Shown in pieces: positions 22,537 to 59,160 of a stretch of DNA of 64,000 bases. Source of the stretch: Candidatus Sysuiplasmataceae archaeon (lineage in GTDB: Archaea > Thermoplasmatota > Thermoplasmata > Sysuiplasmatales > Sysuiplasmataceae); NCBI GenBank assembly GCA_046706185.1, contig JBJKPR010000011.1, forward strand, positions 27,150-91,149, read 5' to 3'. Under the pieces are notes generated by a model that saw only the letters and a program-made list of their open reading frames with translations, made no database searches and was not told where the DNA came from. The translations under genes and the position numbers were made by a program. Position 1 is the first letter of the stretch. Each line of letters starts with the position of its first letter.

Positions 22537-23538
22537 TCACATTGTCTTGTTGACCCATACGTCGGGAGCAGACTTCGTTATCTCAAGCGGAAGCCTGTAT
22601 GTTGGCTGCTGTGGTCCGATTTCCTTTGCCCAGAGCACCATTTCGGCCAGGCCCTCCTCAAGCGTGTGTGTGTTCTTGTAGCCTAGCAGTTTTTCAGATT
22701 TCTCTGTAGTGCTGTACGCTATGGTTACTTCCTGGGGCCTGGCCGGCACATGCTCCGGCCTCTGTTCCGACGCCATTATACTCAGCACTGTTGAACAGGC
22801 CTCGTTGATCGTCACCTTCTCAGGGCTGCCGACGTTTATTATCTGGTTCCTGGCTGCCTCATGGAAACCTGCGTTTGCTATCGCACTGGTGGATTCCTCA
22901 ACGTAGGAGAATGCACGGACCTGGTTTCCGGAGCCGTATATTATCGGGTGCTTGTTGGTCATCAGCCTGTTTATCCAGATGCCGAGAACATTTCTGAACG
23001 GGTCGGCAATGTTCTGCTTCGGACCGTACACGTTATGCGGCCTGATGATGGTGTAGTCCAGGCCGTGGGCGGCACTGAAAATCTCGAGCATGTTTTCACA
23101 GTACGCCTTGCCTGCGCCATACGGGTCCTCCGGCATCCTTGGCATCTCCTCGCTGAATGGGGCCTTCTGGTTGCCATATACCGCCATGGATGATGTGAAG
23201 ACAAAGCGTTCGACCTCGTTGTTCACCGCGGCAACAAGGAGGTTGTTCATCGGCTTTATGTTGATGTCATTAATCGCGATTGGCGAAAAGACAGACTGCC
23301 CCTCGGCGGCGTAGGCAGCCAGATGATATACTATGTCCACCCCCTTCACCACGCGGTTGACGAGCGAGGTGTCTCTCAGGTCGCCTTTGACGAAGTTGCA
23401 CTCGCGGCTCACGTTGCTCATGTAGCCACCGGAAAGGTCGTCGACTGCAGTCACACTGTGGCCCCTCCGTATCAGTTCCTCCACAAGCCATGAACCCATG
23501 AACCCGGCTCCGCCCGTGACGAGTATGTTTTTGCCCAT
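22537..23538 (-). CDS. NAD-dependent sugar epimerase/reductase (extended SDR)
   Basis: ILVTGGAGFMGSWL is a Rossmann motif, TSSMAVYG and YGAGK (YxxxK) are present, and there is no TDE dehydratase motif. Confidence 0.8.
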   Translation of the reverse strand: MGKNILVTGGAGFMGSWLVEELIRRGHSVTAVDDLSGGYMSNVSRECNFVKGDLRDTSLVNRVVKGVDIVYHLAAYAAEGQSVFSPIAINDINIKPMNNLLVAAVNNEVERFVFTSSMAVYGNQKAPFSEEMPRMPEDPYGAGKAYCENMLEIFSAAHGLDYTIIRPHNVYGPKQNIADPFRNVLGIWINRLMTNKHPIIYGSGNQVRAFSYVEESTSAIANAGFHEAARNQIINVGSPEKVTINEACSTVLSIMASEQRPEHVPARPQEVTIAYSTTEKSEKLLGYKNTHTLEEGLAEMVLWAKEIGPQQPTYRLPLEITKSAPDVWVNKTM

Positions 23539-23696: not shown

Positions 23697-24764
23697 ATGA
23701 AAGGGGTCATCCTGCATGGTGGAAGGGCAAACGGCCTCAGTTCCCTTGCCTACAGCGAGGTTCAGCAGCTCCTGCCAGTTGCGGGAAAACCGATAAGCGA
23801 ATATGCGCTACAGAGCCTCGTGGATGCCGGTGTGACGGAGATAAACATAATTGTCGGCAACGCGGGCGCGGAGGAGGTGATAGGCTACTTCGGAGACGGC
23901 AGGAAATGGGGAGCGCATATCACATACACGAGCCAGGAGAGGCCGGAAGGTATTGCCCAGGCAGTTGGATTGGCGGAGAGGTTCGTCGGCAATGAACCAT
24001 TTGTTGTCTATCTTGGAGACAACATGCTTCAGGGAGGCATTACAGGGCTTGTAAGGAAGTTTTCAGAGAGTTCCATGGATGCGCTCCTTGTCGTCAACAG
24101 AGTGCCTGACCCGGAAAGATACGGCGTCGCAGAGATCGTGGATGGAAGGATCGTAAGGCTCCTCGAAAAACCGAAGGAGCCGCCATCTGACAGGGCGCTT
24201 GTAGGCGTTTACTTCCTGAGGCCAAACGCCTTCAGGGCAATAGAGAGGGTCCATCCATCGGCGAACGGTGAATATGAGCTGACGGACGCATTGCAGATGA
24301 TGATCGACGAAGGACTGGATATCGGTTACCAGGAGATCAGCGGGTGGTGGAAGGACACAGGCACGATGGAGGATCTTATTGACGCAAACAGGCTCGTGCT
24401 CGATGGAGTGGAAGCTGAGATCAGGGCTGTGGGCAACCAGGGGCGTGTGTCAGGAAGGGCAAGGATAATGGAGGACGTCAGGATAGACGGAGGCTCCGTT
24501 GTGATGGGCCCGTGCTACATAGGGAGGGACACAAGGCTTGTCAACGCATTCATCGGCCCCTATACAAGCATAGGGAGCAACTGCAGTATAGAAGGAGTGG
24601 AGATAGACGACTCGATCGTAATGGACAGGTGCAGGATCGAGGGAAACGGCTTCACAAAAATAAGCGAGAGCCTCATAGGGACAGGCAGCGACGTTGTCAA
24701 GGGAAACGGCGTAAGAAAGTCAACAAAACTACTGGTGGGAAGGAATTCAAAGGTAGAGCTGTGA
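23697..24764 (+). CDS. Sugar-1-phosphate nucleotidyltransferase (long RmlA/GlmU-like form with C-terminal left-handed beta-helix), atypical N-terminal motif
   Basis: MKGVILHGG...LLPVAGKPISEYAL...YLGDN...EKP...WWKDTG is a nucleotidyltransferase fold. The C-terminus has hexapeptide-like repeats. The stop overlaps the next ATG (GTGATG). Confidence 0.75.
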   Translation: MKGVILHGGRANGLSSLAYSEVQQLLPVAGKPISEYALQSLVDAGVTEINIIVGNAGAEEVIGYFGDGRKWGAHITYTSQERPEGIAQAVGLAERFVGNEPFVVYLGDNMLQGGITGLVRKFSESSMDALLVVNRVPDPERYGVAEIVDGRIVRLLEKPKEPPSDRALVGVYFLRPNAFRAIERVHPSANGEYELTDALQMMIDEGLDIGYQEISGWWKDTGTMEDLIDANRLVLDGVEAEIRAVGNQGRVSGRARIMEDVRIDGGSVVMGPCYIGRDTRLVNAFIGPYTSIGSNCSIEGVEIDDSIVMDRCRIEGNGFTKISESLIGTGSDVVKGNGVRKSTKLLVGRNSKVEL

Positions 24765-25834
24765 TGCACGGCAGTGCGGAGGAGGGCAGGCTGCATCGGC
24801 TGCGCGAGAACAATGAGACTGATGCATACAAAAGGCCGCTTTTTTCAGTGATACTGATTGCATTCGACAGACAGAACTACATCTCAGGTGCCTTCCGCTC
24901 GATTGTCTCGCAGACGCTGGACAGTTCGCTGTATGAGATCATTGTGATCAAGAACTTTCCGAACGCAATGATAGACGGATGGACCGGCGCTCCTTCAGTC
25001 AGGGTCGTCCAGTCCCCCTCCCCCTCAATCGGTGAATCATATTCAGAGGGTGTGCGCATCTCTGGCGGGAGGATAATCTGTTTCCTTGACGACGACGATG
25101 AATTCGAGCCTGACAGGCTCGAACGCATACAGGAGCTGTTTTCCACAAGGAAGGGGCCAGTCTACTACCATAACCAGAGGACGGTGGTGGATGAGGATGG
25201 AAGGGCAATAAGGAACAGATGGGCCTCGTCCCTTGCCGGAAACCAGGGCGTGGACATCATCGAAGTGGGGCCAAGTGAAGTTGCAGAGAGCTCGCTCCCT
25301 GCCACCTTTGAAGCGTATTTCAATGAAAGCTCCATGGCCCTGAGCCGTGAAGTGCTGGAGGGGCACCTGGGGGAGCTGGAAAGCGCACCTACCCTGATAG
25401 ACATATTCATGGTATGCACGGCAGTCGCGGAGAAGGCCACCTTCGTTCTTGACAGCAGGAGGACGACAAGATACAGGGTGCATGGCAACCAGGTTTCCGG
25501 CTGGTCCAGCGGGAAGTTTTCCGACCCTTCCATAAACGAGGAGAACTCGGTAATAAGGAAACACATAGATGTTGAGAGGAGCTGCATGCAGCTTGTCAGG
25601 GGCACGTTCACGGAGCAGATATTCATGAGAAGCCTTCCAAGGCTCGTGCTCACAAACCAGCTCTACTTCTCGAGCAGGAAGGAGACTGGAAGGATGCTCA
25701 GAAATATGTATGCATACCTGAGGCGGAGGAACGCGTCAGACGTGCCTGACATGCTCCTGCTTGCGTTCCTCTCCTTCACATACTCCATATCACGCCTCCT
25801 TCCCAGGAAGGTGGCAGGCATGCTGAGAAGATAG
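24764..25834 (+). CDS. GT2 family glycosyltransferase
   Basis: FSVILIAFDRQNYISGAFRSIVSQT...FLDDDDEFEPDRL is present. ATG 24764 shares its A with the TGA of the upstream gene. The track ORF start at 24512 overlaps that gene and is rejected. Confidence 0.8.
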   Translation: MHGSAEEGRLHRLRENNETDAYKRPLFSVILIAFDRQNYISGAFRSIVSQTLDSSLYEIIVIKNFPNAMIDGWTGAPSVRVVQSPSPSIGESYSEGVRISGGRIICFLDDDDEFEPDRLERIQELFSTRKGPVYYHNQRTVVDEDGRAIRNRWASSLAGNQGVDIIEVGPSEVAESSLPATFEAYFNESSMALSREVLEGHLGELESAPTLIDIFMVCTAVAEKATFVLDSRRTTRYRVHGNQVSGWSSGKFSDPSINEENSVIRKHIDVERSCMQLVRGTFTEQIFMRSLPRLVLTNQLYFSSRKETGRMLRNMYAYLRRRNASDVPDMLLLAFLSFTYSISRLLPRKVAGMLRR

Positions 25835-26159: not shown

Positions 26160-27449
26160 ATGAAGGGGGAGGAGCCCATTGTCAGAGAGATGGTGGGCAG
26201 GGCACTTGAAGGGAGGAAGTTTGTACCCGGCGAAACACCGATCCGTGTGGCCCAGCCGCTGTTTGACGGCAATGACATAGGGCTGTTCCTTGAAAGCGCG
26301 AGAGAGATGTTCTCAAAGAACTGGATCGGTGTTGGAAGGTACACGAATGAATTCGAAGAGAATTTCTCCTCTCTATTCGATGGGAAAATGGCCCTGTTCG
26401 TAAACTCGGGGACCTCCGCCGATTACCTCGCAGTGAAAGCGCTGGAGGAGAGGAAGGGCGACTGGGACGGAGGGAACTGCATTACGACCGCGCTCACCTT
26501 CCCGTCCACAATCAACCCTGTACTCGCCTCCGGCCTGAAGGCGAAGCTGCTCGACATAAGGCTTCCTTCCTATTCTATCGACACGGAGGAACTCGAAGAG
26601 GCTGTCGATGAGGAGACGAAGGGGATAGTGCTTGCTCACATACTTGGACTTCCGCAGCCTGCTTCGGAGGTTGAGCGCCTGGCGCGCAGGCAGTCCATGT
26701 TCTTCGTGGAGGACGCATGCGATGCGCTCGGCGGCAGCTACGACGGAAGGCTTATTGGGGATTTCGGTGAACCCTCCACATTCTCTTTCTACGCCGCCCA
26801 TCAGATCACAACGGGTGAGGGGGGCATGCTTCTTACCTCGGACAGGGATGTGTACGAGACGGCGAGGTCGCTGAGGGACTGGGGAAAGGCGTACGCTCCG
26901 GACAGCGTGGCGGGTCAGGGCTTGAGGAAACTGAGGCATCTGAGAACATCAAGGCTGCCCCCTGACTACGATGCACACTTCATTTTTGAGAGGAAGGGGT
27001 TCAACATGAAGCCCATAGACATACAGGCTGCACTGGGCATTTCGCAGCTGAGGAAGCTGCCTGAGTTCACAAGGGCACGAAAGAAGAACTTCGATGCTCT
27101 GGCGGACAGCCTTAAGGACAGCGGTGCGGACAGAAGCCTCATGGTAGCCGAACCGCTGCCGGGCAGCGAGGTCTCGTGGTTCTGCTTCCCGCTGCTTGCT
27201 GAGCGGGGAGTGAAGAGGAGAAGAGTCGTTGACTTTCTTGAGAAAAGGAGGATAGAGACGAGGCCGATACTCGCAGGCAACATAATAGATCAGCCGGCGT
27301 ACGCGGAAGAGGAGTTCATCCCTGCTGGAAGCCTGAGGAACACGGAAAGGGTGGCAAGGGACGGTTTCTTTGTGGGCATACACCCGGCGCTCGGCAGCGA
27401 GGAGATGGACTACATCGGCAGGATGCTGAAACAGGCTTTGCTGGAGTAA
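26160..27449 (+). CDS. RfbH/E1-like NDP-4-keto-6-deoxyhexose 3-dehydrase (DegT/DnrJ/EryC1 fold, His in place of the PLP lysine)
   Basis: SFYAAHQITTGEGG has His 214 (26799..26801) where aminotransferases carry Lys. The length (429 aa) and the segments FVPGE...NSGTSA...EDACDALG...RDWG resemble RfbH. The Cys-rich Fe-S segment after RDWG is absent. Confidence 0.7.
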   Translation: MKGEEPIVREMVGRALEGRKFVPGETPIRVAQPLFDGNDIGLFLESAREMFSKNWIGVGRYTNEFEENFSSLFDGKMALFVNSGTSADYLAVKALEERKGDWDGGNCITTALTFPSTINPVLASGLKAKLLDIRLPSYSIDTEELEEAVDEETKGIVLAHILGLPQPASEVERLARRQSMFFVEDACDALGGSYDGRLIGDFGEPSTFSFYAAHQITTGEGGMLLTSDRDVYETARSLRDWGKAYAPDSVAGQGLRKLRHLRTSRLPPDYDAHFIFERKGFNMKPIDIQAALGISQLRKLPEFTRARKKNFDALADSLKDSGADRSLMVAEPLPGSEVSWFCFPLLAERGVKRRRVVDFLEKRRIETRPILAGNIIDQPAYAEEEFIPAGSLRNTERVARDGFFVGIHPALGSEEMDYIGRMLKQALLE

Positions 27450-27453: not shown

Positions 27454-28515
27454 TCAGACAGCTGGCCCCAGCGTCTTTGAGGCCCAGTCCAGAAGTCTTT
27501 CCACGCCCTCCCGGACACCGATCTCAGGCTTCCACTTCAGTTTCCTTCTGGCCCTGCCTATGTCCGATATGTAGACCTTCTGATCGCTGTTCCGCCATTC
27601 GCCGTAGGCAGGTTCTATCCTGCGCTTAAGCCTGCCTTCAAGCAGGCGCACCAGTTCAAGGAGGGATGTTGTATTTCTCCACCCGCCGCCCAAGTTGAAA
27701 ACACCTGATGGCAGATTCGATTCAATGAAGCAGTCGTACGCCCTCACAAGGTCATCCACATGGAGCACATCTCTCACCTGCTTTCCGTCGCCGTATATGG
27801 TGAGCTTCCTCCCGAGCAGAGCTGAAATGACGAAGTGAGCCACCCACCCCTGGTCCTCGCTTCCGAACTGCCTGTCGCCGTAGATGCAGCTCATTCTGCA
27901 GCAGGCTGTCCGGAGGCCGTATGTCTTGCCATACTCCTGAACGTATATGTCGGCTGAAAGCTTGGACGAACCGTAGGGGGAATGCTTGCAGGCATCGACA
28001 GAAAAGTCTTCTGGTATTCCCCTTGAGTAATCTTCGTCGGAGAAGTAGTACCTCAATCCGCTGCTCCTGACAGGTATTGAATTGACATTCTCACCGTATA
28101 CCTTGTTTGTCGAGCAGAAGACGACACGTGGCTCCTTTCCAGACTTCCTGCATGCCTCCAGGACGTTGAAGGTCCCCCTCACATTTGTGTTGAAATCATG
28201 TGCAGGGTCGTCAAGGGAGGTTGTCACTGCCACCTGGGCGGCGGTATGTATGACTGCGTCGGCGTCTGAAATAAGTTCATCCACCGTTCTCTGCTGGAGA
28301 ACAGACCCCCTTACGAGCCTTATGTTTTTCAGCCCTTTGAGGTAGTTCCAGTTATACACCTTTGTGTTTACGCCGAACCCATGGACAGGAGGCCTTGACA
28401 GGTTGTCCAGAACGGTCACATTCCATCCTTTCCTTGCGTAGAATTCGGCAGCATGGGAACCTATGAAACCTGCACCGCCGGTGACAACTACATTCCTACC
28501 TTCCTTACCAACCAT
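27454..28515 (-). CDS. CDP-tyvelose/paratose 2-epimerase-like extended SDR
   Basis: VVVTGGAGFIGSH, VLDNLSR, STNKVYGE, SPYGSSK, DQGWVAHF, GDGKQVRDVLH and SLLELV match my recollection of Salmonella RfbE (tyvelose epimerase). Confidence 0.65.
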   Translation of the reverse strand: MVGKEGRNVVVTGGAGFIGSHAAEFYARKGWNVTVLDNLSRPPVHGFGVNTKVYNWNYLKGLKNIRLVRGSVLQQRTVDELISDADAVIHTAAQVAVTTSLDDPAHDFNTNVRGTFNVLEACRKSGKEPRVVFCSTNKVYGENVNSIPVRSSGLRYYFSDEDYSRGIPEDFSVDACKHSPYGSSKLSADIYVQEYGKTYGLRTACCRMSCIYGDRQFGSEDQGWVAHFVISALLGRKLTIYGDGKQVRDVLHVDDLVRAYDCFIESNLPSGVFNLGGGWRNTTSLLELVRLLEGRLKRRIEPAYGEWRNSDQKVYISDIGRARRKLKWKPEIGVREGVERLLDWASKTLGPAV

Positions 28516-28559: not shown

Positions 28560-29330
28560 TCAGTCACTTGCGTATCTCTTGATAAAATAATTAACTATTC
28601 CCTGCGGGAGAAACTTCCTGATCGGCAGGTTCATGAGCCTGATGCCGATGAGTGTGATAAACATGATAGGTATCACCCTGAATATCGGCATTCTTGTCCG
28701 CGGATCGTGCTCCCACCTTACACCAACTTCCTTTATAGTTGCGCCATTCCTCCTTGCATGGTAGAGCATTGCAACATCGAACGTCCTGTTGTTCACGACC
28801 GTGTTTGACATTACATGTCTTGCCACTTCAGACCTGAATGCCTTGGCACCGCACTGCGTGTCCATGACAGGAAGGCCTAGCAGCCCTCTGACAAGAACGT
28901 TGAAGACGCGCCCCACAGTCCTGTTGAAAAGCGGTTCCTTTGTGACCCACACGCTCTCCGGGAGCCACCTGGACGCGACCACGCAGTCGTAATCACCTGT
29001 TGCCTCCAGCATCCTCCTGAGGTCATCCGGGGAAAGGCTGCCGTCAGCATCGACCCAGCATATCACGCCGTATCTGGCAAGGCCGATGCCCTTCCTTATG
29101 GCGCCCCCCTTCCCAAGCTTGGAACTGTACCTGTAACCGGTGACACCAAGGCCGCTGTACCGTTTGATGACCTCGTGCGTGCCATCCGCCCCGTCCATGA
29201 CAACAAGAACCTCGTATGGCTCATTGATTGACTGCAGGACAGGCAGATACTGGTCCAGCGACTTGCATATCCTGTCCTCCTCATTGTAGGCGGGGATTAC
29301 AAGTGAAACTCCTTCGCCCTTCAACTCCAA
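28560..29330 (-). CDS. GT2 glycosyltransferase, Dol-P-hexose synthase-like (Alg5/DPM1-like) with C-terminal TM
   Basis: VSLVIPAYNEEDRI...VLVVMDGADGT...KGGAIRKG...VDADGS is present, with a hydrophobic C-terminal helix (IPIMFITLIGIRL). The start is TTG (29330 or 29324). Confidence 0.75.
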   Translation of the reverse strand: MELKGEGVSLVIPAYNEEDRICKSLDQYLPVLQSINEPYEVLVVMDGADGTHEVIKRYSGLGVTGYRYSSKLGKGGAIRKGIGLARYGVICWVDADGSLSPDDLRRMLEATGDYDCVVASRWLPESVWVTKEPLFNRTVGRVFNVLVRGLLGLPVMDTQCGAKAFRSEVARHVMSNTVVNNRTFDVAMLYHARRNGATIKEVGVRWEHDPRTRMPIFRVIPIMFITLIGIRLMNLPIRKFLPQGIVNYFIKRYASD

Positions 29331-29422: not shown

Positions 29423-30538
29423 TCAGCGTGCCGAAATGAACCGCTTCCTTTCCTCTTCCGCCCTGGCGAAGTTATCCCTTGCCTTCTGCCTGGAGGACCA
29501 CTCAGCAAGCTCCCTGATTCCTTCGCTCAGACCTGTGAATTTTACCGGGCCGAAGCTTTTCAGAAACCGGGAGCTGTCAGAAAAATCGTGCCTGTTGTCT
29601 CCTGGCCTGAAATCGTTGGTGACTTCGGGCTCGATGCTGCTTCCGATCTCCTCGTTGAGCATCGAGATCATCTGCAGAAGGGAGGATGGCCTTCCGGTGC
29701 CGAGGTTGAACGCACCCTCCCCTTTCTCAAGCGCCGCCACATTGGCCCTTGCCACGTCGCCCACGTAGATGAAGTCCCTGAGCTGTCTACCGTCTTCAAA
29801 CACAACCGGCCTGTTGCCGTTCTTGAGCCTTGACATGAATATGGCAATCACACCAGTATACGGATTGGAGAGGCTCTGCCTCGGGCCGTAGACATTGAAA
29901 TACCTGAATGCCACAGCAGGTATGCCGAGGGCGGAGGAATAGCTCAGTGCAAGCCGCTCGGTCGCGTACTTGGACAGGGAATAGGGGTTCAGGTTCTGCG
30001 GCGGTTTGTCCTCTGTGACTGCCACCGGTTCGGTCTCGGCACCGCATATGCTGCATCGCACCTCCCATTCCCTCTTCCTGAGCTGCTCAGCGCTCCTGGG
30101 AAGGGGGTATATCGTGCCGTGTTCCCTGCACCTGTAGGCGCCCTCGCCGTAGAGGCTCTTGCTCGATGCCACAACCACCTTGCCTATGCTCTTTCTGAGC
30201 GAGGCATCCCTTGTGAGAAGCTCGAATAGTGTGGATGTACCGACAATGTTTGTCTGGTTGTATTTCCTCGACTCCCAGAAGCTCTGGCCAATTCCGACAC
30301 ATGCTGCAAGGTGTATCACATGGGTCACACCCTTCAGCGCCTTAAGCCAGTCCTTCTGGTAGCGGACGTCGCCGATGATGTACTTTGCCTTCCTGTTGAG
30401 GTAAGACGGCTTGCTGCCAAGATGTACCTGCCTTTCCAGGTTGTCGAGGACCACAACATCGTACCCCTCCTCAATCAGAGAGTCGACGGTGTGGCTTCCG
30501 ATAAAGCCCATTCCACCCGTCACAAGTACCCTGGTCAC
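29423..30538 (-). CDS. NAD-dependent sugar epimerase/reductase (extended SDR) with a zinc-ribbon-like insertion
   Basis: VLVTGGMGFIGSH, ASSKSLYGEG and YSLSK (YxxxK) are present. A ~40-aa insertion reads YRCREHG...WEVRCSICGAE. The start is GTG. Confidence 0.75.
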   Translation of the reverse strand: MTRVLVTGGMGFIGSHTVDSLIEEGYDVVVLDNLERQVHLGSKPSYLNRKAKYIIGDVRYQKDWLKALKGVTHVIHLAACVGIGQSFWESRKYNQTNIVGTSTLFELLTRDASLRKSIGKVVVASSKSLYGEGAYRCREHGTIYPLPRSAEQLRKREWEVRCSICGAETEPVAVTEDKPPQNLNPYSLSKYATERLALSYSSALGIPAVAFRYFNVYGPRQSLSNPYTGVIAIFMSRLKNGNRPVVFEDGRQLRDFIYVGDVARANVAALEKGEGAFNLGTGRPSSLLQMISMLNEEIGSSIEPEVTNDFRPGDNRHDFSDSSRFLKSFGPVKFTGLSEGIRELAEWSSRQKARDNFARAEEERKRFISAR

Positions 30539-30599: not shown

Positions 30600-32222
30600 T
30601 CATCTTGGCCTTTCGACGAAAAAGGCACCGATCCGCCTTACGAATGTAAGTCTCCTCTTCAGGAGCGATTCGGCGAATTCCACTAGGAAGACATCCGCCT
30701 GCTCGACGCTGCCTGTGCCAAGAACAGCAAACACCGAGAAAATGGCGAGTATGAAGAAAACAACAACAATTCCGGCTATCTGAAGCGTGGGGTGTAGCAG
30801 GCTCAGTATTATTCCAGGAACGATGAGCGACGCTGCAAGCGGCTTCGCATACTCGGCCCTGAACGGATGAAGCCTTCCCTCCCTGTACATCTCGGAAAGT
30901 GCGAGCCCCTGATAAAGCAGAAGGCCCACCACAGAGGCGGCCGATGCTCCCATTCCGCCGTATGCAGGTATGAGAATGAGCGAGGCTACGACGTTGCCGA
31001 CCGCAGAAACACCTCCGTTCAATGCAACAAGCTTCGTCCTTCCGAGCGCTGTGAGAAGTATCGGGGCAGGACCAAGAACAGAGGCGATGAAATTGCCTAC
31101 TGCAAGAAGCTGCAGCATCTCTCTCGCCTCCACATATTTCAGCCCGAATGCGGTGGCGAGCGTGTCTGTCGGAAAAAAGAGGAAGAGGAAGAGAAGCGGC
31201 ACAGACAGCACAAGGTTCCACTTCGTCGCAGTGGTGTAGCTGTCCCTGAGTTCACGAAACTGCGATCTTGAGAACAGCTCCGCTGCCACAGGCAGCAGTA
31301 TGAAACTTGCTGCATTTATGCCGAAGAATATTATCCTGCCCAGAGACAGTGCTGCCGAGTACTGACCAACGGCGGAGGCGTCCCTGAATACACCGAGAAG
31401 AAGTGTGTCTGCATAGTTGAAGAGATATGAGAAGGCACCGGCAATGAGCAGCGGTAGGCCGAATGCAACAAGGAACCTGCTTTCCCTTGATGTGTCTCTG
31501 CCTATGAACGTGAAGAGTGACTTCCTCTGAGCATAAATAACAGAAAGAGCTGCCACAATCACCGTCGAGATAAGATAACCGATAACCACGCCGTAGAACC
31601 CCATACCTGTGAAGTAAAGGAGAGCGCCTATTGCGGTGAAGAGGATCGGTGGAAGCGTGTTGTTGAAAAGAGCGCTGGGAAGCGCCTTCTTGTATCCCTG
31701 GAAAATGGCAGATATTGTTGAAGTCACCTGCGTCAGGAACACTGTAGGGGCGAATATGCGTATCAGCGGCTCAATTCCCGGCTCATGCAGTGCCGAGGAG
31801 ACGAGCGGTGCGATGAAATAGATAAGCAGCGAGAATGCGGCGGCGGCACCGAGTGTTATCAGCAGCCCATACTTGACTATGCCGCTTCTTCTTTCTTCAG
31901 GAACGTAGAGGAGGTTCCTGGCTATTGATGCGGTTACGCCCAGTGGAGCGACGATGGAAAGGAGCGAGATTGCGGCCATTGCAAGTGTTATGATTCCCCA
32001 CTGGGAAACAGTGATCAGCCTGAGTATCACAATCCTGTTCACAAGTGAGAAGGCGAAGAACGAAATGGTCCCGGTCAGCGTCACTATTGCACCGGAGCTC
32101 ATCGAGAATATTGCGCTTCTCAGCACCTCCCTGTCGGAGCCGCCGGCAGCTGCATCGCCCCCCTTAGCAGGCAGCTGAGTCACTCTCCCCCTGTATTCCT
32201 GCCCGGCAGAGGTTATCAGCAT
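30600..32222 (-). CDS. Wzx/AglR-type oligosaccharide flippase (MOP superfamily polysaccharide biosynthesis protein)
   Basis: It has about 12-14 hydrophobic helices and a Wzx-like length and layout. I prefer ATG 32222, because the track start at 32378 overlaps the upstream gene by 121 nt. Confidence 0.75.
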   Translation of the reverse strand: MLITSAGQEYRGRVTQLPAKGGDAAAGGSDREVLRSAIFSMSSGAIVTLTGTISFFAFSLVNRIVILRLITVSQWGIITLAMAAISLLSIVAPLGVTASIARNLLYVPEERRSGIVKYGLLITLGAAAAFSLLIYFIAPLVSSALHEPGIEPLIRIFAPTVFLTQVTSTISAIFQGYKKALPSALFNNTLPPILFTAIGALLYFTGMGFYGVVIGYLISTVIVAALSVIYAQRKSLFTFIGRDTSRESRFLVAFGLPLLIAGAFSYLFNYADTLLLGVFRDASAVGQYSAALSLGRIIFFGINAASFILLPVAAELFSRSQFRELRDSYTTATKWNLVLSVPLLFLFLFFPTDTLATAFGLKYVEAREMLQLLAVGNFIASVLGPAPILLTALGRTKLVALNGGVSAVGNVVASLILIPAYGGMGASAASVVGLLLYQGLALSEMYREGRLHPFRAEYAKPLAASLIVPGIILSLLHPTLQIAGIVVVFFILAIFSVFAVLGTGSVEQADVFLVEFAESLLKRRLTFVRRIGAFFVERPR

Positions 32223-32257
32223 GGCACATCGAGGTGAAATGTCTGCCTGACATGGGC

Positions 32258-35200
32258 TCACTCCGTCTTCCTGTTGAAGAGCGAGTTGCATCCGCCTGTC
32301 TGAGGGAGATGCCTGTAGTAGACAGTGTGTGGCCTCTTCTTCCATGAGTTGCGGTTCACAATGAAGAGCGTCATGCATATTATCGATGAAGCAGCAAGAA
32401 GAGAGGCCGAAATTCCTATGTATGAAATGAACTTGGACTGTATTGGCAGTCCGAGAGTGAACGTGATGGTGTGCGCTCCAGGCTCAGGATACAGAAGGAA
32501 GCCTATCAGCGAGTAGTCGACCCTCACCGCCTCCCATCCGGACAGGCCGCGGCCGTCCTGGACCTGCCAGGGATTGAGCAGGTAGTTCTGGTTGAATACA
32601 AGGAGCACTGGTTTGCCTGTCGTGTCACTGTCTGTCATGTTTATGCTGTACGAGTATTGCGAGGTCCTGACGTATGACAGTTTCACGTCTGAAGCAACAG
32701 CCGTTACAACGGGCGTCACAACAAACATCCCGGGAGGTGGAGCGTCTGTGACTGGGGGCGGGTTTCCAACAAGGGCGCTTCCTGGCTGGACAAAGGATCC
32801 GTTAGAGGAGTATGAGTTGCCTATCCCGATGGAGTTTATTCTCACATACTGCTCCCCGGGCCACTGAAGCAGTGGTACGCCGTTGAGCCCTGTGCCGTTG
32901 TCGCTGACAGGGTATATTTGTATCACAATGTAGTTGATCACCTTGCTTGCAGAGTTGGACACGACTGCAGGCAGGTTGATAACCATCGACGTGTTCCTGC
33001 CGCTGCTTGTGTAGTATCCGCCACCGTATGCAGGTGCAAGCATGCCATCACCCCATCCTAGGCTGTTATAAGGTGCGACTGTAAACAGATAGTTCTGCTG
33101 CAGCTCGTTCACAGACATGTTTGACAGGTCAGGCGTCGTTATGACGTGTATCGATATGGCGGTGTTCCTGTTTGTCGAGAAATTCAGTATAAGGTAGGGG
33201 AATATCGTTGTATTGATCTGCAGCGGTACACCGTTGAAGTATGTTGGAGGAGGTGACCACAAAGGCGGTTCTAGCTGGTTTGCATCTATACTCTGTTTGG
33301 TCGAGTTGTTGAGCGATATCACGATACTGTTGTTCTCCCACGAGGGGAAGAAGTCGTGCGCAGGTGCATAGATTGAGTTAATGAGAGACAGGTTGTAGAA
33401 TGTTTTTGTTATGTTTATCTCCTGTGCGGCATATCCGTCCGAAAGCAGCGAGGGGTCGATGGTTGAGGCACCGATCCTGAAGACGGAAGGGGAAGTATCA
33501 ACCCTGTAAATGTAGTCCTGGCCGATGATTTTTGCAAGCGTGATCCCCTGGGTGACATTAAGACCGTTGAGTATTGTGCCATAGTCGGGCGTCTTTGTGT
33601 ACGACCAGTATGGCGTCTCTCCCACCTGCCCCTCTATGACGACATAGCTGATGCCCATGGAGGAAAGTATGGAGGCGTAGCCGGCCATAGTTGCCGTGTT
33701 TGCGTGCTCAATCGTCTGGTAGATGTAATCTGTCAGGAAATTGGCAGGACCGTCTATGACAGCAGTGTTTGGCATCAGGAAAGGCAGCACGTCGTATGAG
33801 TCGTAGCCGTGCGTCCAGTTCTGCGATATGAAACGCCCTGGATAGAGGAGAGCATAGCCGTCGGTCAGGTTATGCTTGATGTAGTTCGCCACATCCTCCA
33901 CATAGGAGGGGATCTGCATTCTTGCGTGGAATGGTTCGACTGGCACGGCGTCACCGGTGTATATGGGTGTTGACATGGAAAAGAACGGTATCCAGAGAAG
34001 AAGGACCACAATGGTTGCGGATGCCGCCATCCTGAGTACCCCGGACCTCCGCTTCGAAAGCTGTCCCGGTCCGGGTGAAGGCATTGACCAGTCGCCCTTC
34101 AGCCTGTTGCGCCTGAATGTAAGATATATCATGTCAAGCGCTACAACAAGCGAAAGAATCAGCAGATCCTCGAAGGCGTAGAGGAGTGAACCTGTCGGGT
34201 TCCTGAGTATCTGGAGAAGAAGGGTGTTCCTGTTCAGCTCAAGCAGGAGAGGGAGTATTGGCGAGTTTACTCCCACCATGAAGAGGGAGAGAAGGAACGT
34301 GGCGGAGAGAAGATATGCGAACTTCAGCACGACGCGCTTCCTGTAAAGTGCTGCGGAGACGCATCCGGCTATGAGTATCGCCGGAAACACGTAGCTGGCA
34401 ACGGAGCCAATCGTGTCGAACATGAACGTGTTGAACGGCGTATATATCTCAGCATTGAACTGGAAATGAGGCAGGTACATTCCCCTGAAGAGCAGCGGAA
34501 TCTGCATCATTTTGGTTGAGGAGAGGAATATGGCCGTGTTCTGCGCCACCGAGCCGCTGCTTGAAAGGTAACCCGGGTCCGATACGGAGGCGAGGTATGA
34601 AGTTGAAAGCCACCAGAGGCTCGAAATTGCAATAACCACGATGACAAGAGCATACGACACGGAAAGCTTCAGGATTGATTTGCGGAAAGTAAGTGAGCCG
34701 AAGAAAGGGAGAGGGACGAGTATGAGCGTAAGGAGAAGAAGTGAGATGTTGGAGGGTATGTTTGTGCTGAAGCCGAGCGTTCCGGAGACGAACATGAGGA
34801 ACACATAAAGCGGGTGAATGCGGCCGGTGCTCACATAGACCCTTACCATTGAAAGCGTGTAGTATACAAACATGAAGCCGAAGCCGAGGAGCAGGAAAGT
34901 GGAAGGGAGGCCATCCCACCATATCAGCGCCTGGACAGGGTAGTTCACAAACGATACGATGCCGGCCACAGTTGCAATAGGCACTGCAATGTGGTCAGGC
35001 ATGACCCGTCCAATGAAGAATTCCCTAACTATGCGGTAGAAGTAAATGCCTGCAAGTGCCTGGAGCCCTGCCCATGTTATCACCTCCTGTGAGGGGATAG
35101 ACAGGCCTGCCGCGGACAGGAGTGTGCTCCAGGCGGCAATAGGCAGGTTGAAGAAATTGAGCACATTCAGCCCCCCCATCTGTGAACCTGACCAGGCGTT

Positions 35201-47680: not shown

Positions 47681-47706
47681 TGCACCGAAAATGATCCATG
47701 TGGCCG

Positions 47707-47712
47707 TTTAAA
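47707..47712 (-). promoter_or_regulatory. TATA box for GT4 gene 46496..47680
   Basis: TTTAAA lies 27-32 nt upstream of ATG 47680 on the minus strand. Confidence 0.4.
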
Positions 47713-47798
47713 GAGATTCACTTAATAGTCAATGGTTTTCCTGCTGCCTCCTGCACCATCCGGGTGCATAGTTTGAATGCAGTGGTTCAACGGAGGAT

Positions 47799-49022: not shown

Positions 49023-49042
49023 CCTGAGAGGGCTGGAAACCG

Positions 49043-49852: not shown

Positions 49853-50146
49853 CTCGCACTTCCCTTTGCGGGCAGGTCATACCTGCGTTCTGACGGGAGA
49901 GGCGGAATGACGCCTGAGACATGGCTCACGGGTCAGAGGGCCGCCTCCCCCGATCACAGCAACGCTTCGGTTTCCCAGCCCTCTTCAGGTGTTCTCGAGG
50001 CTTGCCGCTTTATTTTGTGGTTCCCTACTGGCAGTAAGAACTATATGTACTCACGATCGCAGCAGAGGCGGGAGGGATTCGGAAAAATGATCCGTAGCGC
50101 GAAAAGTCCGGCAAATATGCGCGCATGGCATGTACCGCCGCGGGGC

Positions 50147-51301: not shown

Positions 51302-51346
51302 GTTTCAGGCCTCACCTTTTCCAGTGAGCAGGAGAGCAAAAGGGAG

Positions 51347-52516: not shown

Positions 52517-52598
52517 ACGATCGCTTGTAAAAAGAGAGCGCAGAGGGGAAATAGACTTTTTCTAATTATGCAATGGTCGGAAGGGACTGCATGGCGTG

Positions 52599-53762: not shown

Positions 53763-53991
53763 TTCCCTCACACAATCTCATTCCCGCAGCGCTGCAGGTC
53801 AAGACATGAGACAGAGGCATGAACTTGCCCATCAGCTTTGTGTTACGAGCCTTCATTTCGCCGCCCCCATCATTGGCCTGCCCGGGGAAGAAAGGCTGCT
53901 CCTCACCCCTTTCAAGAGAAAATAATCAAATATGCGCGGCAGGCTCTATTAGTAACCGTATGAGGGGCCAACGGGGGAAACAGTTCCTGTG

Positions 53992-54993: not shown

Positions 54994-55031
54994 ATTGCCT
55001 GGATTGCACAATAAAGACTGTCGCTACGAGA

Positions 55032-55041: not shown

Positions 55042-55065
55042 GACTTGCCGGGGTGGTAATACCCG

Positions 55066-56112: not shown

Positions 56113-57246
56113 TCACACTGCGGCGGCTTTGCTCTCAAGCGCTCTGGCAAGCGAGTCGACGACATGGTCGACCATGCTGTCGGTCATATGTGGGTAGATC
56201 GGAAGGCTGAGGACTCTTCCGGACAGCCTTTCGGTAACAGGGAACGACCCAGGGCTGTACCCGAGGTCCGCGTATGCCTTCTGCAGGTGGGGAGGAACAG
56301 GGTAGTGTACCATCGTATCCACGCCCATCGATGAAAGAGCGGCCCTGACCCTTTCCCTTTCAGCCACCTGCACCACGTACAGGTGCCACGAGGGCCTTAC
56401 ACCCTCCATAACTGCCGGGAGCGTGAGCGTCTCCCCGTCCATTTTCCCGGAACCAAGCGCATGCGCATACCGCAGGGCAATCATGTTGCGCCTTCCGTTC
56501 CAGCGGTCGAGGTGGCCCAGCCTGACCCTCAGAAAAGCGGCCTGCAGTTCATCGAGCCTGGAATTGTAGCCGATGGTCGTGTGCAGATACTTCACACCTG
56601 AACCGTAGTTCCTGAGGACCCTTATCCTCTCGGCAAGTTCACTGTCTGATGTGACGACTGCTCCCCCGTCGCCAGCCCCGCCAAGGTTCTTGACCGGATA
56701 GAAACTGAAGCAGGTGATGTCCGCATAGGAGCCGGTTCTCCTCCCCTTGTACGAAGCACCATGGGACTGGGCTGCATCCTGTATTATGACTAGGGAACGC
56801 CTCTCCGCCAGAGATGCAATTTCATCCGCATCGGCCGGCTGTCCGTACAGGTCTACTGGCATTATTGCCTTCGTCCGGCGCGTGACTGCTTTCTCAATTG
56901 ACCGTGCATCGATGTTGTAAGTTACCGGGTCTGCGTCAACCGGGACGGGCGTAGCGCCGGAATGCGTGACGGCGAGCCATGTTCCGATGAATGTGTTGGC
57001 TGGCACTATCACCTCATCCCCTGGCCCTATGCCGGAGGCAACAAGGGAGAGATGGAGCGCCTCAAGCCCGCTGCCCACGCCAATGCATTCCCTTGCGTTG
57101 CAGTATGAGGCAAAGTCGGATTCAAATGCCTTCACCTCCTCACCCAGGACAAGATTGCCGTTCTCCATGACGCGTGAATAGGCTGCATCCATCTCCTCCC
57201 TGGTGCTTGAATACAAGGCAGAGAGGTCAACGAACGGGACCTTCAA
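56113..57246 (-). CDS. DegT/DnrJ/EryC1-family PLP-dependent NDP-ketosugar aminotransferase (FdtB/QdtB-like)
   Basis: KVPFVDL is at the N-terminus. FSFYPVKNLGGAGDGGAVVT retains the Schiff-base Lys. The TTG start at 57246 overlaps the TGA of the upstream gene (TTGA). Confidence 0.8.
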   Translation of the reverse strand: MKVPFVDLSALYSSTREEMDAAYSRVMENGNLVLGEEVKAFESDFASYCNARECIGVGSGLEALHLSLVASGIGPGDEVIVPANTFIGTWLAVTHSGATPVPVDADPVTYNIDARSIEKAVTRRTKAIMPVDLYGQPADADEIASLAERRSLVIIQDAAQSHGASYKGRRTGSYADITCFSFYPVKNLGGAGDGGAVVTSDSELAERIRVLRNYGSGVKYLHTTIGYNSRLDELQAAFLRVRLGHLDRWNGRRNMIALRYAHALGSGKMDGETLTLPAVMEGVRPSWHLYVVQVAERERVRAALSSMGVDTMVHYPVPPHLQKAYADLGYSPGSFPVTERLSGRVLSLPIYPHMTDSMVDHVVDSLARALESKAAAV

Positions 57247-57701
57247 GGAATATCACCGCCAGTCAGTGCAATGAATTCATCATAATCGCGTATGTAGTCG
57301 CTCTCATTGTAATGCGTGGAGGCAAGCACGACGTAGACTGTATTGGGATTGAAGTTCTCCATGTTGGTCCAGATGAGGTTTGGTATGTACAGTCCCCTGT
57401 TCGGCCTGTTCAGATGCACAACCTTCGTATCCCTGCCGTCGCTCAAGACAACGTCCAGGCCGCCCGAAAGGCAGATGACAACCTCCTCCAGTTCCCTGTG
57501 CGCATGTGCGCCCCTCTTCTCGCCCGTGGGTATGTCGTAGACATAGAACACGCGTCGTATGGCAAACGGCACATGACCGCCCGATTCAATGAAAGAAAGG
57601 TTGCCCCTCCTCTCTGCGATCTTCGGGAATTCTATCATCCTGCACCTCTCAATCCCAAGACCGCGCTCCTTCCCGACAGCATGGGTGATAACCATGCTCA
57701 T
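57243..57701 (-). CDS. Cupin-fold NDP-4-keto-6-deoxyhexose 3,4-ketoisomerase (FdtA/WxcM-like)
   Basis: ERRGNLSFIE...PFAIRRVFYVYD...KRGAHAHRELEEVVICLSG...ASTHYNESDYIRDYDEF resembles FdtA, including the RG-x-HAH His pair. The start is ATG 57701 or the internal ATG at 57638. Confidence 0.8.
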   Translation of the reverse strand: MSMVITHAVGKERGLGIERCRMIEFPKIAERRGNLSFIESGGHVPFAIRRVFYVYDIPTGEKRGAHAHRELEEVVICLSGGLDVVLSDGRDTKVVHLNRPNRGLYIPNLIWTNMENFNPNTVYVVLASTHYNESDYIRDYDEFIALTGGDIP

Positions 57702-57723
57702 TCACCCCCGGCCCGTATTGTCT

Positions 57724-58716
57724 TCAAACTGCAACACCCCTGTCCATAGAATCCCTGAGGTTCAGCTCGTAGAAATCATGAACAAATGCCCTTGCACCGT
57801 AGCTCTCCTTGTATTTTGCGAGCCCTTCGTTGAGGTGCAGGCCCTCGTTCTCTGTGGAAATGCCGAAGTCAAAGTAAGTCTTGTCTTGATAGACATCCTT
57901 GATCAAGTGCTCGTAAACAAGGTCCAGGGCCCCGATGCCCTTTCCCTGGTTGCTGTTCGCGTTGTACTGTGCATGAACAGTCTCCCTGTGCTCGAAGACA
58001 ATGACTCCTGCGACCAGTCTTGACTCACTGTCTGAGGCAGTGAACAGCTTTATATTGTCCGGAAAGAGAAGAGCAAGCCGCTTGATTTCGTCAGGCGTAT
58101 GGACAGGCTTTACATTGTACTTCTCATGAAGTACCTCCGACTGCAGTTCCATGAATGTGTCAAAGTCATAAGAGCGCTGCACAGTCAGACCTGCACTTTC
58201 CGCCTTTCTTATTTTGCGTGAGCGCATTCTCCAGTAACCGAGCCGTTCCGCCCTGGGCATGTAGATTGCTGCGCTCACATCCCTTCTGAAGAGCCTGGCC
58301 CCCATCCTGTAGAGCGCATAGAGGTCTTCCTCCGCCGGCGCTGAATGGTAGATGTGCGGAAGCGCCTTGTAAACCAGCCTGTCTATTCCCTGACCGAGCA
58401 GATAGTCGCTCATGGAAGAGAATACAGATAGCATCCCTTCTGTTGTCATGTCAAAACCGGAGATGACCCCACCGAATGTCAGCCCGTTGTGGCTGTAGAG
58501 GGTCGCGCCTACAACATGCGCTGGCATTTCGGCCACAAGCTTCCCTTCGGCATCCATGAACATGAGCGAATGGTCGTTGAACCTGTCTGAATGATACTCC
58601 ATGAAATCCCTGTTGAACAGGAAGGTGCCGTTCTTTGCACTGCTGTTGAATGAGTTCCATTCCTCCTTCCTGCCTGAATTGTATTTGTCAGCATGGACGC
58701 CAACAAGACTCTGCAT
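57724..58716 (-). CDS. FemAB-like / two-GNAT-domain acyltransferase
   Basis: EEWNSFNSSAKNGTFLFNRDFMEYH... and the ~330-aa length fit the FemAB-like GNAT pattern (Acetyltransf_6 type). I chose ATG 58716. The track ORF extension to 58935 is Arg/Cys-rich and unlikely to be coding. Confidence 0.55.
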   Translation of the reverse strand: MQSLVGVHADKYNSGRKEEWNSFNSSAKNGTFLFNRDFMEYHSDRFNDHSLMFMDAEGKLVAEMPAHVVGATLYSHNGLTFGGVISGFDMTTEGMLSVFSSMSDYLLGQGIDRLVYKALPHIYHSAPAEEDLYALYRMGARLFRRDVSAAIYMPRAERLGYWRMRSRKIRKAESAGLTVQRSYDFDTFMELQSEVLHEKYNVKPVHTPDEIKRLALLFPDNIKLFTASDSESRLVAGVIVFEHRETVHAQYNANSNQGKGIGALDLVYEHLIKDVYQDKTYFDFGISTENEGLHLNEGLAKYKESYGARAFVHDFYELNLRDSMDRGVAV

Positions 58717-59160
58717 AGCCTCCCCCGCACCAATCTGTCTGCATAAACCGCGCCTCCGGATGCAAATCGAGCGATTATTCAAAGTCCCTGGCTCATTTAA
58801 AAAGGATAACATATTACAGTATGTAGAACCGGAGAATGAGATGCCTCCCACACGCATGCGCCCGTCCAGATGTGCTGCGGGAAACAATTGCCGCCGGATC
58901 ATCCCCCTGCCCCTCCGCCACATGTAGCACGTCAAGCTTTGGCCACCGGCTGGATGCCTGGAAATGTCGTTCTGGCATCAAGGTCGAGGGGATACAGGAC
59001 TTCAGGCTGTGCTGCACCTTTCTGTTCTGCAGAATGCGGCTTTTTCCGGATTCCCAGTAAGTGATAAAAATATCTCAAACTTTATCAACATGCCACCCGG
59101 ATACTGATGGCGCCCTGAAGGGAAGACCGCGTCTTCAGTTTGCTAAGTATGTGATAGCCC

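What the first reader, a model, noticed from the sequence alone, without database searches (positions are those of the whole stretch)
26160..27449. RfbH/E1-like 3-dehydrase with the His-for-Lys substitution but without the Fe-S cysteine motif
Seen in sequence: the PLP-site segment reads SFYAAHQITTGEGG, with His at 26799..26801 where DegT aminotransferases have Lys. The paralogue at 56113.. keeps the Lys (FYPVKNLGG). Established: CDP-6-deoxy-L-threo-D-glycero-4-hexulose 3-dehydrase (E1/RfbH/DdhC/AscC) and ColD carry this His and catalyse C-3 deoxygenation. E1 additionally binds a [2Fe-2S] cluster through a C-x57-C-x-C-x7-C motif located just after the RDWG segment. Here that segment is RDWGKAYAPDSVAGQGL (about 26874..26930) and has no Cys. 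The length and N-terminus are RfbH-like rather than ColD-like. Inference: this is a Fe-S-independent (ColD-like chemistry) 3-dehydrase in an RfbH-like scaffold, implying a 3,6-dideoxyhexose in an archaeal glycan.
Basis: partly seen in the sequence, partly recalled or inferred. Interest (0 to 1): 0.6.

Follow-up and report, generated by a model that had tools for sequence, protein, structure and literature searches.

The report
Iron-sulfur-free E1-like sugar 3-dehydratase
An uncultivated Thermoplasmata archaeon encodes a relative of the sugar-deoxygenating enzyme E1/RfbH that keeps the catalytic histidine but has no iron-sulfur site, so it probably removes a sugar's 3-hydroxyl by the simpler glutamate-driven chemistry of ColD for a surface glycan; the variant is real and untested, but it is not unique.

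Summary
ORF 26160..27449 (+, 429 aa) is a DegT-fold protein closest to E1/RfbH: PDB 3bcx scores 256 bits and the model matches it at TM 0.90, against 183 bits and TM 0.81 for ColD. His214 (codon 26799-26801) sits at the Schiff-base position. Three E1 cluster ligands, C251/C253/C261, are Ala244/Ala246/Leu255 here. The protein has only three Cys, and only C187 is conserved; ColD also has a Cys at that position.

The Cys-less state is conserved in an 18-member, mostly archaeal clade (SH-aLRT 96). That clade includes a 66%-identical orthologue in a syntenic Thermoplasmata MAG, with dN/dS 0.15.

The genome is 99% complete and has no E3-like reductase, no CDP-glucose genes and no GDP-mannose dehydratase above cut-off. 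It does have RmlA and RmlB. The likely substrate is therefore dTDP-4-keto-6-deoxyglucose, not a CDP sugar.

The convergent neighbour is CDP-tyvelose 2-epimerase-like. It lies in a cluster with glycosyltransferases, a flippase and giant surface proteins.

ColD-like turnover is an inference and was not shown. Tree tests leave open whether the cysteines were lost or never present. This scan has already noted Fe-S-free E1-like enzymes in about 40 other genomes. I found no biochemical characterisation.

The parts
26160..27449 (+). E1/RfbH-like PMP-dependent NDP-4-keto-6-deoxyhexose 3-dehydratase homologue without Fe-S ligands (429 aa)
   Evidence: Pfam DegT_DnrJ_EryC1 259 bits. NCBIfam RfbH 358 bits, below the 423 cut-off. 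PDB E1 3bcx 256 bits against ColD 183 bits. AF2 model pLDDT 95; Foldseek E1 TM 0.90.
26799..26801 (+). Codon of His214, at the position of the Schiff-base Lys of aminotransferases (E1 His220, ColD His188)
   Evidence: invariant in 123 aligned homologues
26718..26720 (+). Codon of Cys187, equivalent to E1 Cys193, the only retained member of the four-Cys motif
   Evidence: Alignment. Invariant in the clade, but also Cys in ColD, so not diagnostic of a cluster.
26874..26969 (+). Loop from RDWG to LPPDY (residues 239-270). It has E1 length, with Ala244/Ala246/Leu255 where E1 has Cys251/253/261. Arg256 is invariant in the clade.
   Evidence: lower model confidence here (pLDDT 72-77)
27454..28515 (-). 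CDP-tyvelose 2-epimerase-like SDR, convergent with the dehydratase gene (stops 4 nt apart)
   Evidence: PDB 9rl0 240 bits and 1orr 224 bits; next best 152 bits. The adjacency is kept in L013.
22537..23538 (-). Extended SDR of the epimerase/reductase type (SSMAVYG); candidate 4-ketoreductase
   Evidence: A close homologue (452 bits) lies next to another Cys-less RfbH-like gene in L047.
23697..24764 (+). RmlA_long glucose-1-phosphate thymidylyltransferase paralogue
   Evidence: TIGR01208 390 bits, above the 320 cut-off
24512..25834 (+). GT2 glycosyltransferase. The listed ORF start overlaps the rmlA end; the GT2 domain begins at residue 112.
28560..29330 (-). GT2 resembling polyprenyl-phosphate sugar synthases (AglJ, PpgS, Dol-P-hexose transferase)
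29423..30538 (-). Extended SDR with an internal insertion; second candidate reductase or epimerase
   Evidence: two-stretch matches flanking residues about 134-175
30600..32378 (-). Polysaccharide-biosynthesis (Wzx-type) flippase
   Evidence: Pfam Polysacc_synt 82 bits
56113..57246 (-). Lys-type DegT aminotransferase paralogue beside FdtA (57243..57701) and a GNAT (57724..58935). This is a separate branch that also starts from dTDP-4-keto-6-deoxyglucose.

Best explanation
The gene encodes a PMP/PLP-dependent NDP-4-keto-6-deoxyhexose 3-dehydratase built on the E1/RfbH scaffold that cannot bind E1's [2Fe-2S] cluster.

Shown: the fold, the catalytic His214, the other E1 signature residues (Asp188, Tyr211, Phe341), the absence of cluster ligands, and purifying selection.

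Inferred: the enzyme takes dTDP-4-keto-6-deoxy-D-glucose made by RmlA and RmlB. It forms the PMP-sugar Schiff base, and His214 abstracts the C4' proton to expel the 3-OH. With no electron relay, the delta-3,4-glucoseen adduct would be hydrolysed to PLP plus an enamine, which then tautomerises and loses ammonia. PMP would be regenerated from L-glutamate, as in ColD. The dTDP-4-keto-3,6-dideoxyhexose would then be reduced by a neighbouring SDR and 2-epimerised by the tyvelose-epimerase-like SDR. The product would be loaded on a polyprenyl phosphate by the GT2 and used outside the membrane to decorate the giant surface proteins.
For: - Family and fold.
- His214 at the Lys position.
- E1 residues D194/Y217/H220/F345 correspond to D188/Y211/H214/F341, all invariant in the clade.
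- No Cys ligands: A244, A246 and L255 replace them; the protein has 3 Cys and only one is conserved.
- The Cys-less state is conserved in an 18-member clade (SH-aLRT 96). It is also present in a syntenic orthologue, with dN/dS 0.15.
- No Fer2+FNR (E3-type) protein in a 99%-complete genome.
- RmlB is the only NDP-hexose 4,6-dehydratase above cut-off (441 bits).
- No RfbF, RfbG or GMD above cut-off.
- Relatives of both types sit in rmlA-rmlB-SDR operons.
- The neighbour is tyvelose 2-epimerase-like.
- GT2, flippase and surface-protein context.
- E1, ColD and SpnQ mechanisms as reviewed in PMC8987622.
Against: - There is no biochemical evidence for any Cys-less E1-like enzyme. ColD-type hydrolysis and glutamate recycling are assumed only because electron transfer seems impossible.
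- A scan for positions that separate the Cys-less clade from Fe-S types found no clear convergence on ColD residues.
- No 4,6-dehydratase lies in the window cluster. RmlB is on another contig.
- The gene evolves about 2.5 times faster than its neighbours (dN 0.26 against 0.10-0.11). It sits on a long branch, which could mean altered function.
- Tyvelose-epimerase-like enzymes also act on non-deoxygenated CDP-glucose (PMC13098431), so the neighbour does not prove a 3,6-dideoxy product.
Confidence: 0.55

Rival explanations
1. The enzyme acts mainly as a transaminase. Lacking a reductive outlet, it shuttles between PLP and PMP with glutamate. It would convert dTDP-4-keto-6-deoxyglucose, or a 3-deoxy derivative, into a 4-amino sugar.
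For: SpnQ shows aminotransferase activity with PLP and glutamate when no reductase is present (review PMC8987622). Seven of the nine Cys-less relatives with an intact E1-length loop sit beside amino-sugar genes of the DegT type.
Against: His, not Lys, is invariant at the Schiff-base position. The E1 dehydratase signature D/Y/H/F is fully kept. The genome and the relatives' loci carry separate Lys-type DegT enzymes for amination. According to the review, ColD and E1 do not transaminate under the SpnQ conditions.
Confidence: 0.12
2. The enzyme is still a reductive, E1/SpnQ-type 3-deoxygenase. Electrons would reach the PMP-glucoseen intermediate directly from a separate ferredoxin or another redox protein that docks where the lost cluster used to sit.
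For: Archaeal Fe-S-type relatives also have no dedicated E3 neighbour and presumably use general ferredoxins, as SpnQ does. The loop keeps E1 length and an invariant Arg256-Lys/Arg257 pair that could serve docking. The genome encodes several 2Fe-2S and 4Fe-4S proteins and a 257-aa FNR-like reductase.
Against: No redox gene is linked to any of the Cys-less loci examined. No precedent is known to me for cluster-free electron delivery to PMP in this family. The former ligand positions are unconstrained in the clade.
Confidence: 0.12
3. The protein is a decaying or non-catalytic remnant of an Fe-S enzyme, or it performs only a single stoichiometric dehydration.
For: It evolves faster than flanking genes and has a long branch. 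The former Cys positions are variable.
Against: dN/dS is 0.15 against a 66%-identical orthologue in conserved synteny. All ten residues invariant across 123 homologues are retained. The variant persists across an 18-member clade and a 13-member 90% cluster from several assemblies. The AF2 model is very confident.
Confidence: 0.06
4. The chemistry is the same, but the substrate is another nucleotide sugar, for example a CDP- or UDP-linked 4-keto sugar made by one of the unassigned SDRs.
For: The neighbour's closest solved relatives are CDP-tyvelose 2-epimerases. The cluster's RmlA_long enzymes belong to a family I recall as often nucleotide-promiscuous (own knowledge). Three SDRs in the cluster have no assigned reaction.
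Against: No RfbF or CDP-glucose 4,6-dehydratase reaches its cut-off. None of the three cluster SDRs shows the acid/base pair of 4,6-dehydratases at the conserved Ser/Thr segment; they read SSMAVYG, STNKVYG and SSKSLYG. Relatives are consistently linked to RmlB.
Confidence: 0.15

Closest known systems
E1 / AscC / DdhC / RfbH, CDP-6-deoxy-L-threo-D-glycero-4-hexulose 3-dehydrase of Yersinia and Salmonella (PDB 3BCX)
   Same: Best sequence match (256 bits) and best structural match (TM 0.90, rmsd 1.8 A). Same length, N-terminal extension and loop length. Same catalytic His and the D/Y/F residues around it.
   Different: Three of the four [2Fe-2S] ligands are replaced by Ala, Ala and Leu. No E3 partner. 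The score is below NCBIfam's RfbH cut-off (358 against 423). The pathway context is dTDP (RmlA/RmlB), not CDP.
ColD / WbdK, GDP-4-keto-6-deoxy-D-mannose 3-dehydratase (PDB 2GMS)
   Same: His in place of Lys and no Fe-S cluster, so this is the only known precedent for the turnover proposed here.
   Different: More distant (183 bits, TM 0.81). ColD is about 40 residues shorter at the N-terminus and 8 shorter in the loop, and has RAHGW instead of RDWG. ColD-like sequences form a separate clade (SH-aLRT 99) in the best tree, although an AU test does not reject a sister relationship (p 0.49). The genome has no GDP-mannose 4,6-dehydratase.
SpnQ-type dTDP-sugar 3-dehydratases of actinomycete deoxysugar pathways
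   Same: dTDP-sugar context, no dedicated E3, and the same fold and His (review; context).
   Different: SpnQ binds a [2Fe-2S] cluster and acts on a 2,6-dideoxy substrate made by a 2,3-dehydratase. A search of the genome for that dehydratase family found nothing, but the family also rang in none of the control genomes, so its absence is not shown. No SpnQ sequence was compared directly.

Membership tests
E1/RfbH/AscC (Fe-S, E3-dependent CDP-sugar 3-dehydrase) | DegT/aspartate-aminotransferase fold with a PMP site | tested here: met
   Pfam PF01041 259 bits; AF2 model TM 0.90 to 3bcx
E1/RfbH/AscC (Fe-S, E3-dependent CDP-sugar 3-dehydrase) | His replaces the Schiff-base Lys (E1 His220) | tested here: met
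   His214 aligns to His220 and to the Lys of the paralogue
E1/RfbH/AscC (Fe-S, E3-dependent CDP-sugar 3-dehydrase) | [2Fe-2S] motif C193-x57-C251-x-C253-x7-C261 | tested here: not met
   Only C187 (=C193) is present. A244, A246 and L255 replace the other three. The protein has 3 Cys in all.
E1/RfbH/AscC (Fe-S, E3-dependent CDP-sugar 3-dehydrase) | E3 (AscD/RfbI) reductase partner: Fer2 + FAD_binding_6 + NAD_binding_1 | tested here: not met
   The two NAD_binding_1 proteins in the 99%-complete genome are PyrK and a 257-aa FNR-like protein without Fer2. No Fer2 hit is fused to an FNR module.
E1/RfbH/AscC (Fe-S, E3-dependent CDP-sugar 3-dehydrase) | CDP-glucose supply (RfbF, RfbG) and the curated equivalog score | tested here: not met
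   TIGR02623 best 61 bits (cut-off 300). TIGR02622 best 86.5 bits (cut-off 278). NF011936 358 bits (cut-off 423)..
ColD (GDP-4-keto-6-deoxymannose 3-dehydratase) | His at the Lys position and no Fe-S cluster | tested here: met
ColD (GDP-4-keto-6-deoxymannose 3-dehydratase) | Sequence membership in the ColD clade (about 390 aa, RAHGW loop) | tested here: inconclusive
   In the ML tree 11 ColD-like rows form their own clade (99) apart from the query's clade. The AU test does not reject joining them (p 0.49). Pairwise scores favour E1.
ColD (GDP-4-keto-6-deoxymannose 3-dehydratase) | GDP-mannose 4,6-dehydratase supplying the substrate | tested here: not met
   TIGR01472 best 61.6 bits against a cut-off of 415
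ColD (GDP-4-keto-6-deoxymannose 3-dehydratase) | Glutamate-dependent PMP regeneration with ammonia release | not testable with these tools
   Needs an enzyme assay
SpnQ-type dTDP-sugar 3-dehydratase | dTDP-4-keto-6-deoxyglucose pathway context | tested here: met
   RmlA_long x2 and RmlB in the genome. rmlA/rmlB are linked to relatives.
SpnQ-type dTDP-sugar 3-dehydratase | [2Fe-2S] cluster | tested here: not met
   No ligand set

The most novel reading that the evidence does not exclude
The archaeal Cys-less clade is a natural E1-scaffold enzyme that resolves the PMP-glucoseen intermediate with no electron transfer and works on dTDP-4-keto-6-deoxyglucose. That would give the first dTDP-linked paratose/tyvelose-type pathway and the first 3,6-dideoxyhexose in an archaeal surface glycan. 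It could also be the surviving evolutionary intermediate between ColD and the Fe-S enzymes rather than a secondary loss.
Probability: 0.3. Interest if true: 0.65.

Novelty: new variant of a known kind. Interest (0 to 1): 0.5.

Why it matters
E1 is the textbook case of a B6 enzyme that needs an iron-sulfur cluster and a dedicated reductase to deoxygenate a sugar. ColD is the only characterised cluster-free alternative.

A conserved family with the E1 scaffold but no cluster gives a natural experiment on how the PMP-glucoseen intermediate can be resolved, and on how the two mechanisms are related in evolution. Databases currently name these proteins RfbH or CDP-sugar 3-dehydrase, which implies the wrong cofactor set and probably the wrong nucleotide.

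For archaeal biology, the gene points to a rare 3-deoxygenated 6-deoxyhexose on the surface of uncultivated Thermoplasmata, a group whose envelope chemistry is unknown.

Tried and rejected
Neighbourhoods of metagenomic relatives were instead read from loci fetched by the search for related loci, using my own ORF calling and BLAST.
- The primary E1, ColD and SpnQ papers were not held. Mechanisms are cited from the review PMC8987622.
- The term 'ColD' matched 'cold' and wasted one literature search. Searches for archaeal 3-dehydratases or dideoxyhexoses found nothing relevant.
- I looked for positions where the Cys-less clade converges on ColD. Only nine clade-specific positions turned up and none was convincing.
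- I tested whether the Cys-less state arose by repeated loss. The ML trees suggest several origins, but AU tests do not reject one clade of all Cys-less rows (p 0.13) or a ColD sister position (p 0.49). The direction of change is therefore left open.
- I looked for a 4,6-dehydratase among the three cluster SDRs and found none.
- The C57 SDR lies next to GalU and UDP-glucose dehydrogenase, so it belongs to a UDP-glucuronate branch.
- The PF03559 (2,3-dehydratase) search is uninformative, because it rang in no control genome.
- PDB entry 9wvy ('putative NDP-4-keto-6-deoxyglucose-3-dehydratase', 135 bits) was not inspected residue by residue.

Full report
**Observation.** The ORF at 26160..27449 (+) encodes 429 residues. 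Residues 209-222 read SFYAAHQITTGEGG, and the His214 codon CAT lies at 26799-26801. RDWGKAYAPDSVAGQGL is encoded at 26874-26924 and has no cysteine.

HMMER alignment to the solved E1 structure (3bcx, 256 bits) pairs His214 with E1 His220. Alignment to ColD (2gms, 183 bits) pairs it with His188. BLASTP against the window's own DegT paralogue (56113..57246, -) pairs it with the Schiff-base Lys: FSFYAAHQI against FSFYPVKNL.

Counting E1 residues in the alignment reproduces the published spacing C193-x57-C251-x-C253-x7-C261. The review PMC8987622 states that E1 and SpnQ carry a four-cysteine [2Fe-2S] motif and that ColD does not. At those four positions the query has Cys187, Ala244, Ala246 and Leu255.

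The protein has only three cysteines: 107, 187 and 342. Only Cys187 is conserved among its relatives. ColD, which has no cluster, also has Cys at that position. A four-ligand site is therefore excluded on sequence grounds.

**Identity.**
- Pfam places the protein in DegT_DnrJ_EryC1.
- NCBIfam's RfbH equivalog aligns end to end but scores 358 bits against a cut-off of 423.
- An AlphaFold2 model built on 123 homologues has mean pLDDT 95. It dips to 72-77 only in residues 241-260, the former cluster loop.
- Foldseek ranks E1 first (TM 0.90, rmsd 1.8 A) and ColD next (TM 0.81).
- The residues that correspond, by my count in the alignment, to E1 D194, Y217, H220 and F345 are Asp188, Tyr211, His214 and Phe341. 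From memory, these four were the mutagenesis targets in Liu-lab work; that paper was not held, so I could not check. All four are invariant in the query's clade.
- The loop between RDWG and LPxDY has E1 length, whereas ColD is eight residues shorter there.

**How common the variant is.**
- Of the best 120 homologues in the 90%-clustered collection, 20 lack loop cysteines, and these include all of the closest ones.
- Among 268 homologues pooled from the two searches, 206 have His plus three or more loop Cys, and 55 have His and none.
- The nearest relatives are only two clusters at 67% identity, then 44% or less. One of those clusters has 13 members from several assemblies.
- In genome collections the closest hit is a Thermoplasmata MAG (L013, 66%).
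- One member of the wider clade is annotated 'RfbH [Thaumarchaeota/Nitrososphaerota archaeon]'.
- This scan has already flagged Fe-S-free E1-like genes in about 40 other genomes, from Prochlorococcus and Patescibacteria to algal viruses. Those notes are unchecked, but they agree with what I see. The variant is widespread and, as far as I could find, uncharacterised.

**Phylogeny.**
- FastTree on 226 rows places the query in a group of 27 Cys-less proteins (support 88).
- IQ-TREE on 98 rows places it in an 18-member Cys-less clade (SH-aLRT 96). That clade sits inside a 23-row set (97) and is surrounded by Fe-S lineages.
- In the IQ-TREE tree, 11 ColD-like sequences form a separate clade (99). 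Several further Cys-less lineages are scattered among Fe-S types, including loop-deleted forms in Woesearchaeota and Methanosarcinales.
- The deep branches are weak. AU tests do not reject joining the query's clade to the ColD-like clade (delta lnL 4.2, p 0.49). They also do not reject holding all 38 Cys-less rows together (delta lnL 64, p 0.13).
- I therefore do not claim that the cysteines were lost, only that their absence is old and conserved in this clade.

**Is the gene under selection?** Against the L013 orthologue, dN/dS is 0.15 with dS 1.7, which is close to saturation. The gene changes about 2.5 times faster at the protein level than its two SDR neighbours: dN 0.26 against 0.10-0.11, and 66% against 82-83% identity. 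It is constrained but relatively fast-evolving.

**Redox partner.** The assembly is 2.09 Mb and 99% complete. It has two NAD_binding_1 proteins: PyrK, and a 257-aa FNR-like protein next to fumarase that has no ferredoxin domain. None of the seven Fer2 hits is fused to an FNR module. No E3 is present.

This absence is weak evidence by itself. Fe-S-type archaeal relatives also have no E3-like gene nearby, and one of their genomes has no FAD_binding_6 hit at all. They presumably rely on general ferredoxins, as SpnQ does.

**Substrate.** None of the three SDRs in the cluster looks like a 4,6-dehydratase. The genome does encode RmlB (441 bits, cut-off 365) next to a second RmlA_long on contig C8. 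It has nothing above cut-off for glucose-1-phosphate cytidylyltransferase, CDP-glucose 4,6-dehydratase or GDP-mannose 4,6-dehydratase.

In related loci, both Fe-S-type and Cys-less genes sit in operons with RmlA_long, RmlB and an SDR. An example is rmlA-SDR-rfbH-rmlB in a Hadarchaeales MAG, where RmlB scores 459 bits.

The window also holds an FdtA-DegT-GNAT set (56113..58935), another consumer of dTDP-4-keto-6-deoxyglucose. The most likely substrate is therefore the dTDP sugar, not the CDP sugar of E1.

**Downstream steps.** The gene convergent with the dehydratase (27454..28515, stops 4 nt apart) matches CDP-tyvelose 2-epimerases far better than any other solved SDR: 240 and 224 bits, against 152 for the next. 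The pairing is conserved in L013.

The rest of the cluster holds the following genes:
- an RmlA_long paralogue;
- two further SDRs;
- two GT2 enzymes, one resembling polyprenyl-phosphate sugar synthases;
- a Wzx-type flippase.

According to earlier follow-ups of this scan, an AftD-like GT-C and giant surface proteins also lie here.

This fits the synthesis of a 3,6-dideoxyhexose, its 2-epimerisation, its transfer to a lipid carrier, and its use outside the membrane. There are two caveats. Tyvelose epimerase homologues also epimerise ordinary CDP-glucose (PMC13098431). And seven of the nine Cys-less relatives with an intact E1-length loop lie beside a DegT aminotransferase, so in those organisms the end product may be a 4-amino-3,4,6-trideoxyhexose.

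**Mechanism.** Without a cluster, the one-electron reductions that E1 and SpnQ use are not available. The only characterised alternative is ColD's. In it, the PMP-hexoseen adduct is hydrolysed, the enamine tautomerises and loses ammonia, and PMP is regenerated from glutamate.

I adopt that as the best explanation at about 55%. It is an inference from absence. A search for ColD-like residue convergence found nothing convincing. The rivals are transaminase-only activity, electron delivery from an external protein, decay, and a different nucleotide substrate. They are listed with their tests.

**Verdict.** The protein works on an E1 scaffold but fails E1's defining Fe-S, E3 and CDP features. Its membership of the ColD clade is unresolved. 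It is best filed as a new variant of a known kind. It is of moderate interest to deoxysugar enzymologists and for archaeal surface glycans.

Noticed in passing
window 56113-58935 (-): A Lys-type DegT aminotransferase, FdtA (WxcM-like 3,4-ketoisomerase, 173 bits) and a GNAT acetyltransferase lie side by side. This looks like a dTDP-3-acetamido-3,6-dideoxyhexose (Fuc3NAc/Qui3NAc-type) branch. Two GT2 genes (53989-56094) lie next to it, with a run of five GT4 genes further upstream (46496-53771).
   Followed up: partly
proteins P0131, P0263, P0266 (homologues, not in the window): Some Fe-S-type RfbH homologues carry intein-like insertions of several hundred residues. They are placed exactly inside the EDC|CDALG motif or inside the cysteine loop.
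   Followed up: no
L022:6394-7629, L023:924-2171, L090: RfbH-like genes of a Woesearchaeota MAG, a Methanosarcinales MAG and a metagenome contig have the whole cluster loop deleted (RDWGRIGSGKY...YNLKP) but keep the catalytic His.
   Followed up: partly
L014-L020, L026, L038-L043 and others: Bathyarchaeia, Freyarchaeota and Hadarchaeales carry Fe-S-type RfbH genes in rmlA-SDR-rfbH-rmlB operons. Their cysteine spacing is C-x-C-x2-C-x10-C, which differs from E1's C-x-C-x7-C, and no E3-like gene is nearby.
   Followed up: partly
window 26160-27449 versus L013:4964-6253: The RfbH-like gene diverges about 2.5 times faster in protein sequence (66% identity, dN 0.26) than the flanking SDR genes (82-83%, dN 0.10-0.11) between the two Thermoplasmata genomes.
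   Followed up: partly
L037:7078-8595 (own genome, contig C8): The RmlB domain occupies residues 178-496 of a 504-residue ORF. The first 176 residues matched no NCBIfam model at E<=1e-10. They may be a mis-called start or an unknown N-terminal domain.
   Followed up: no
window 29423-30538 (-): This extended SDR matches epimerase structures in two stretches separated by an insertion of about 40 residues (roughly residues 134-175).
   Followed up: no
window 24512-25834 (+): The listed GT2 ORF starts inside the end of the rmlA_long gene, and its GT2 domain begins only at residue 112. The true start is probably near 24.8 kb.
   Followed up: no
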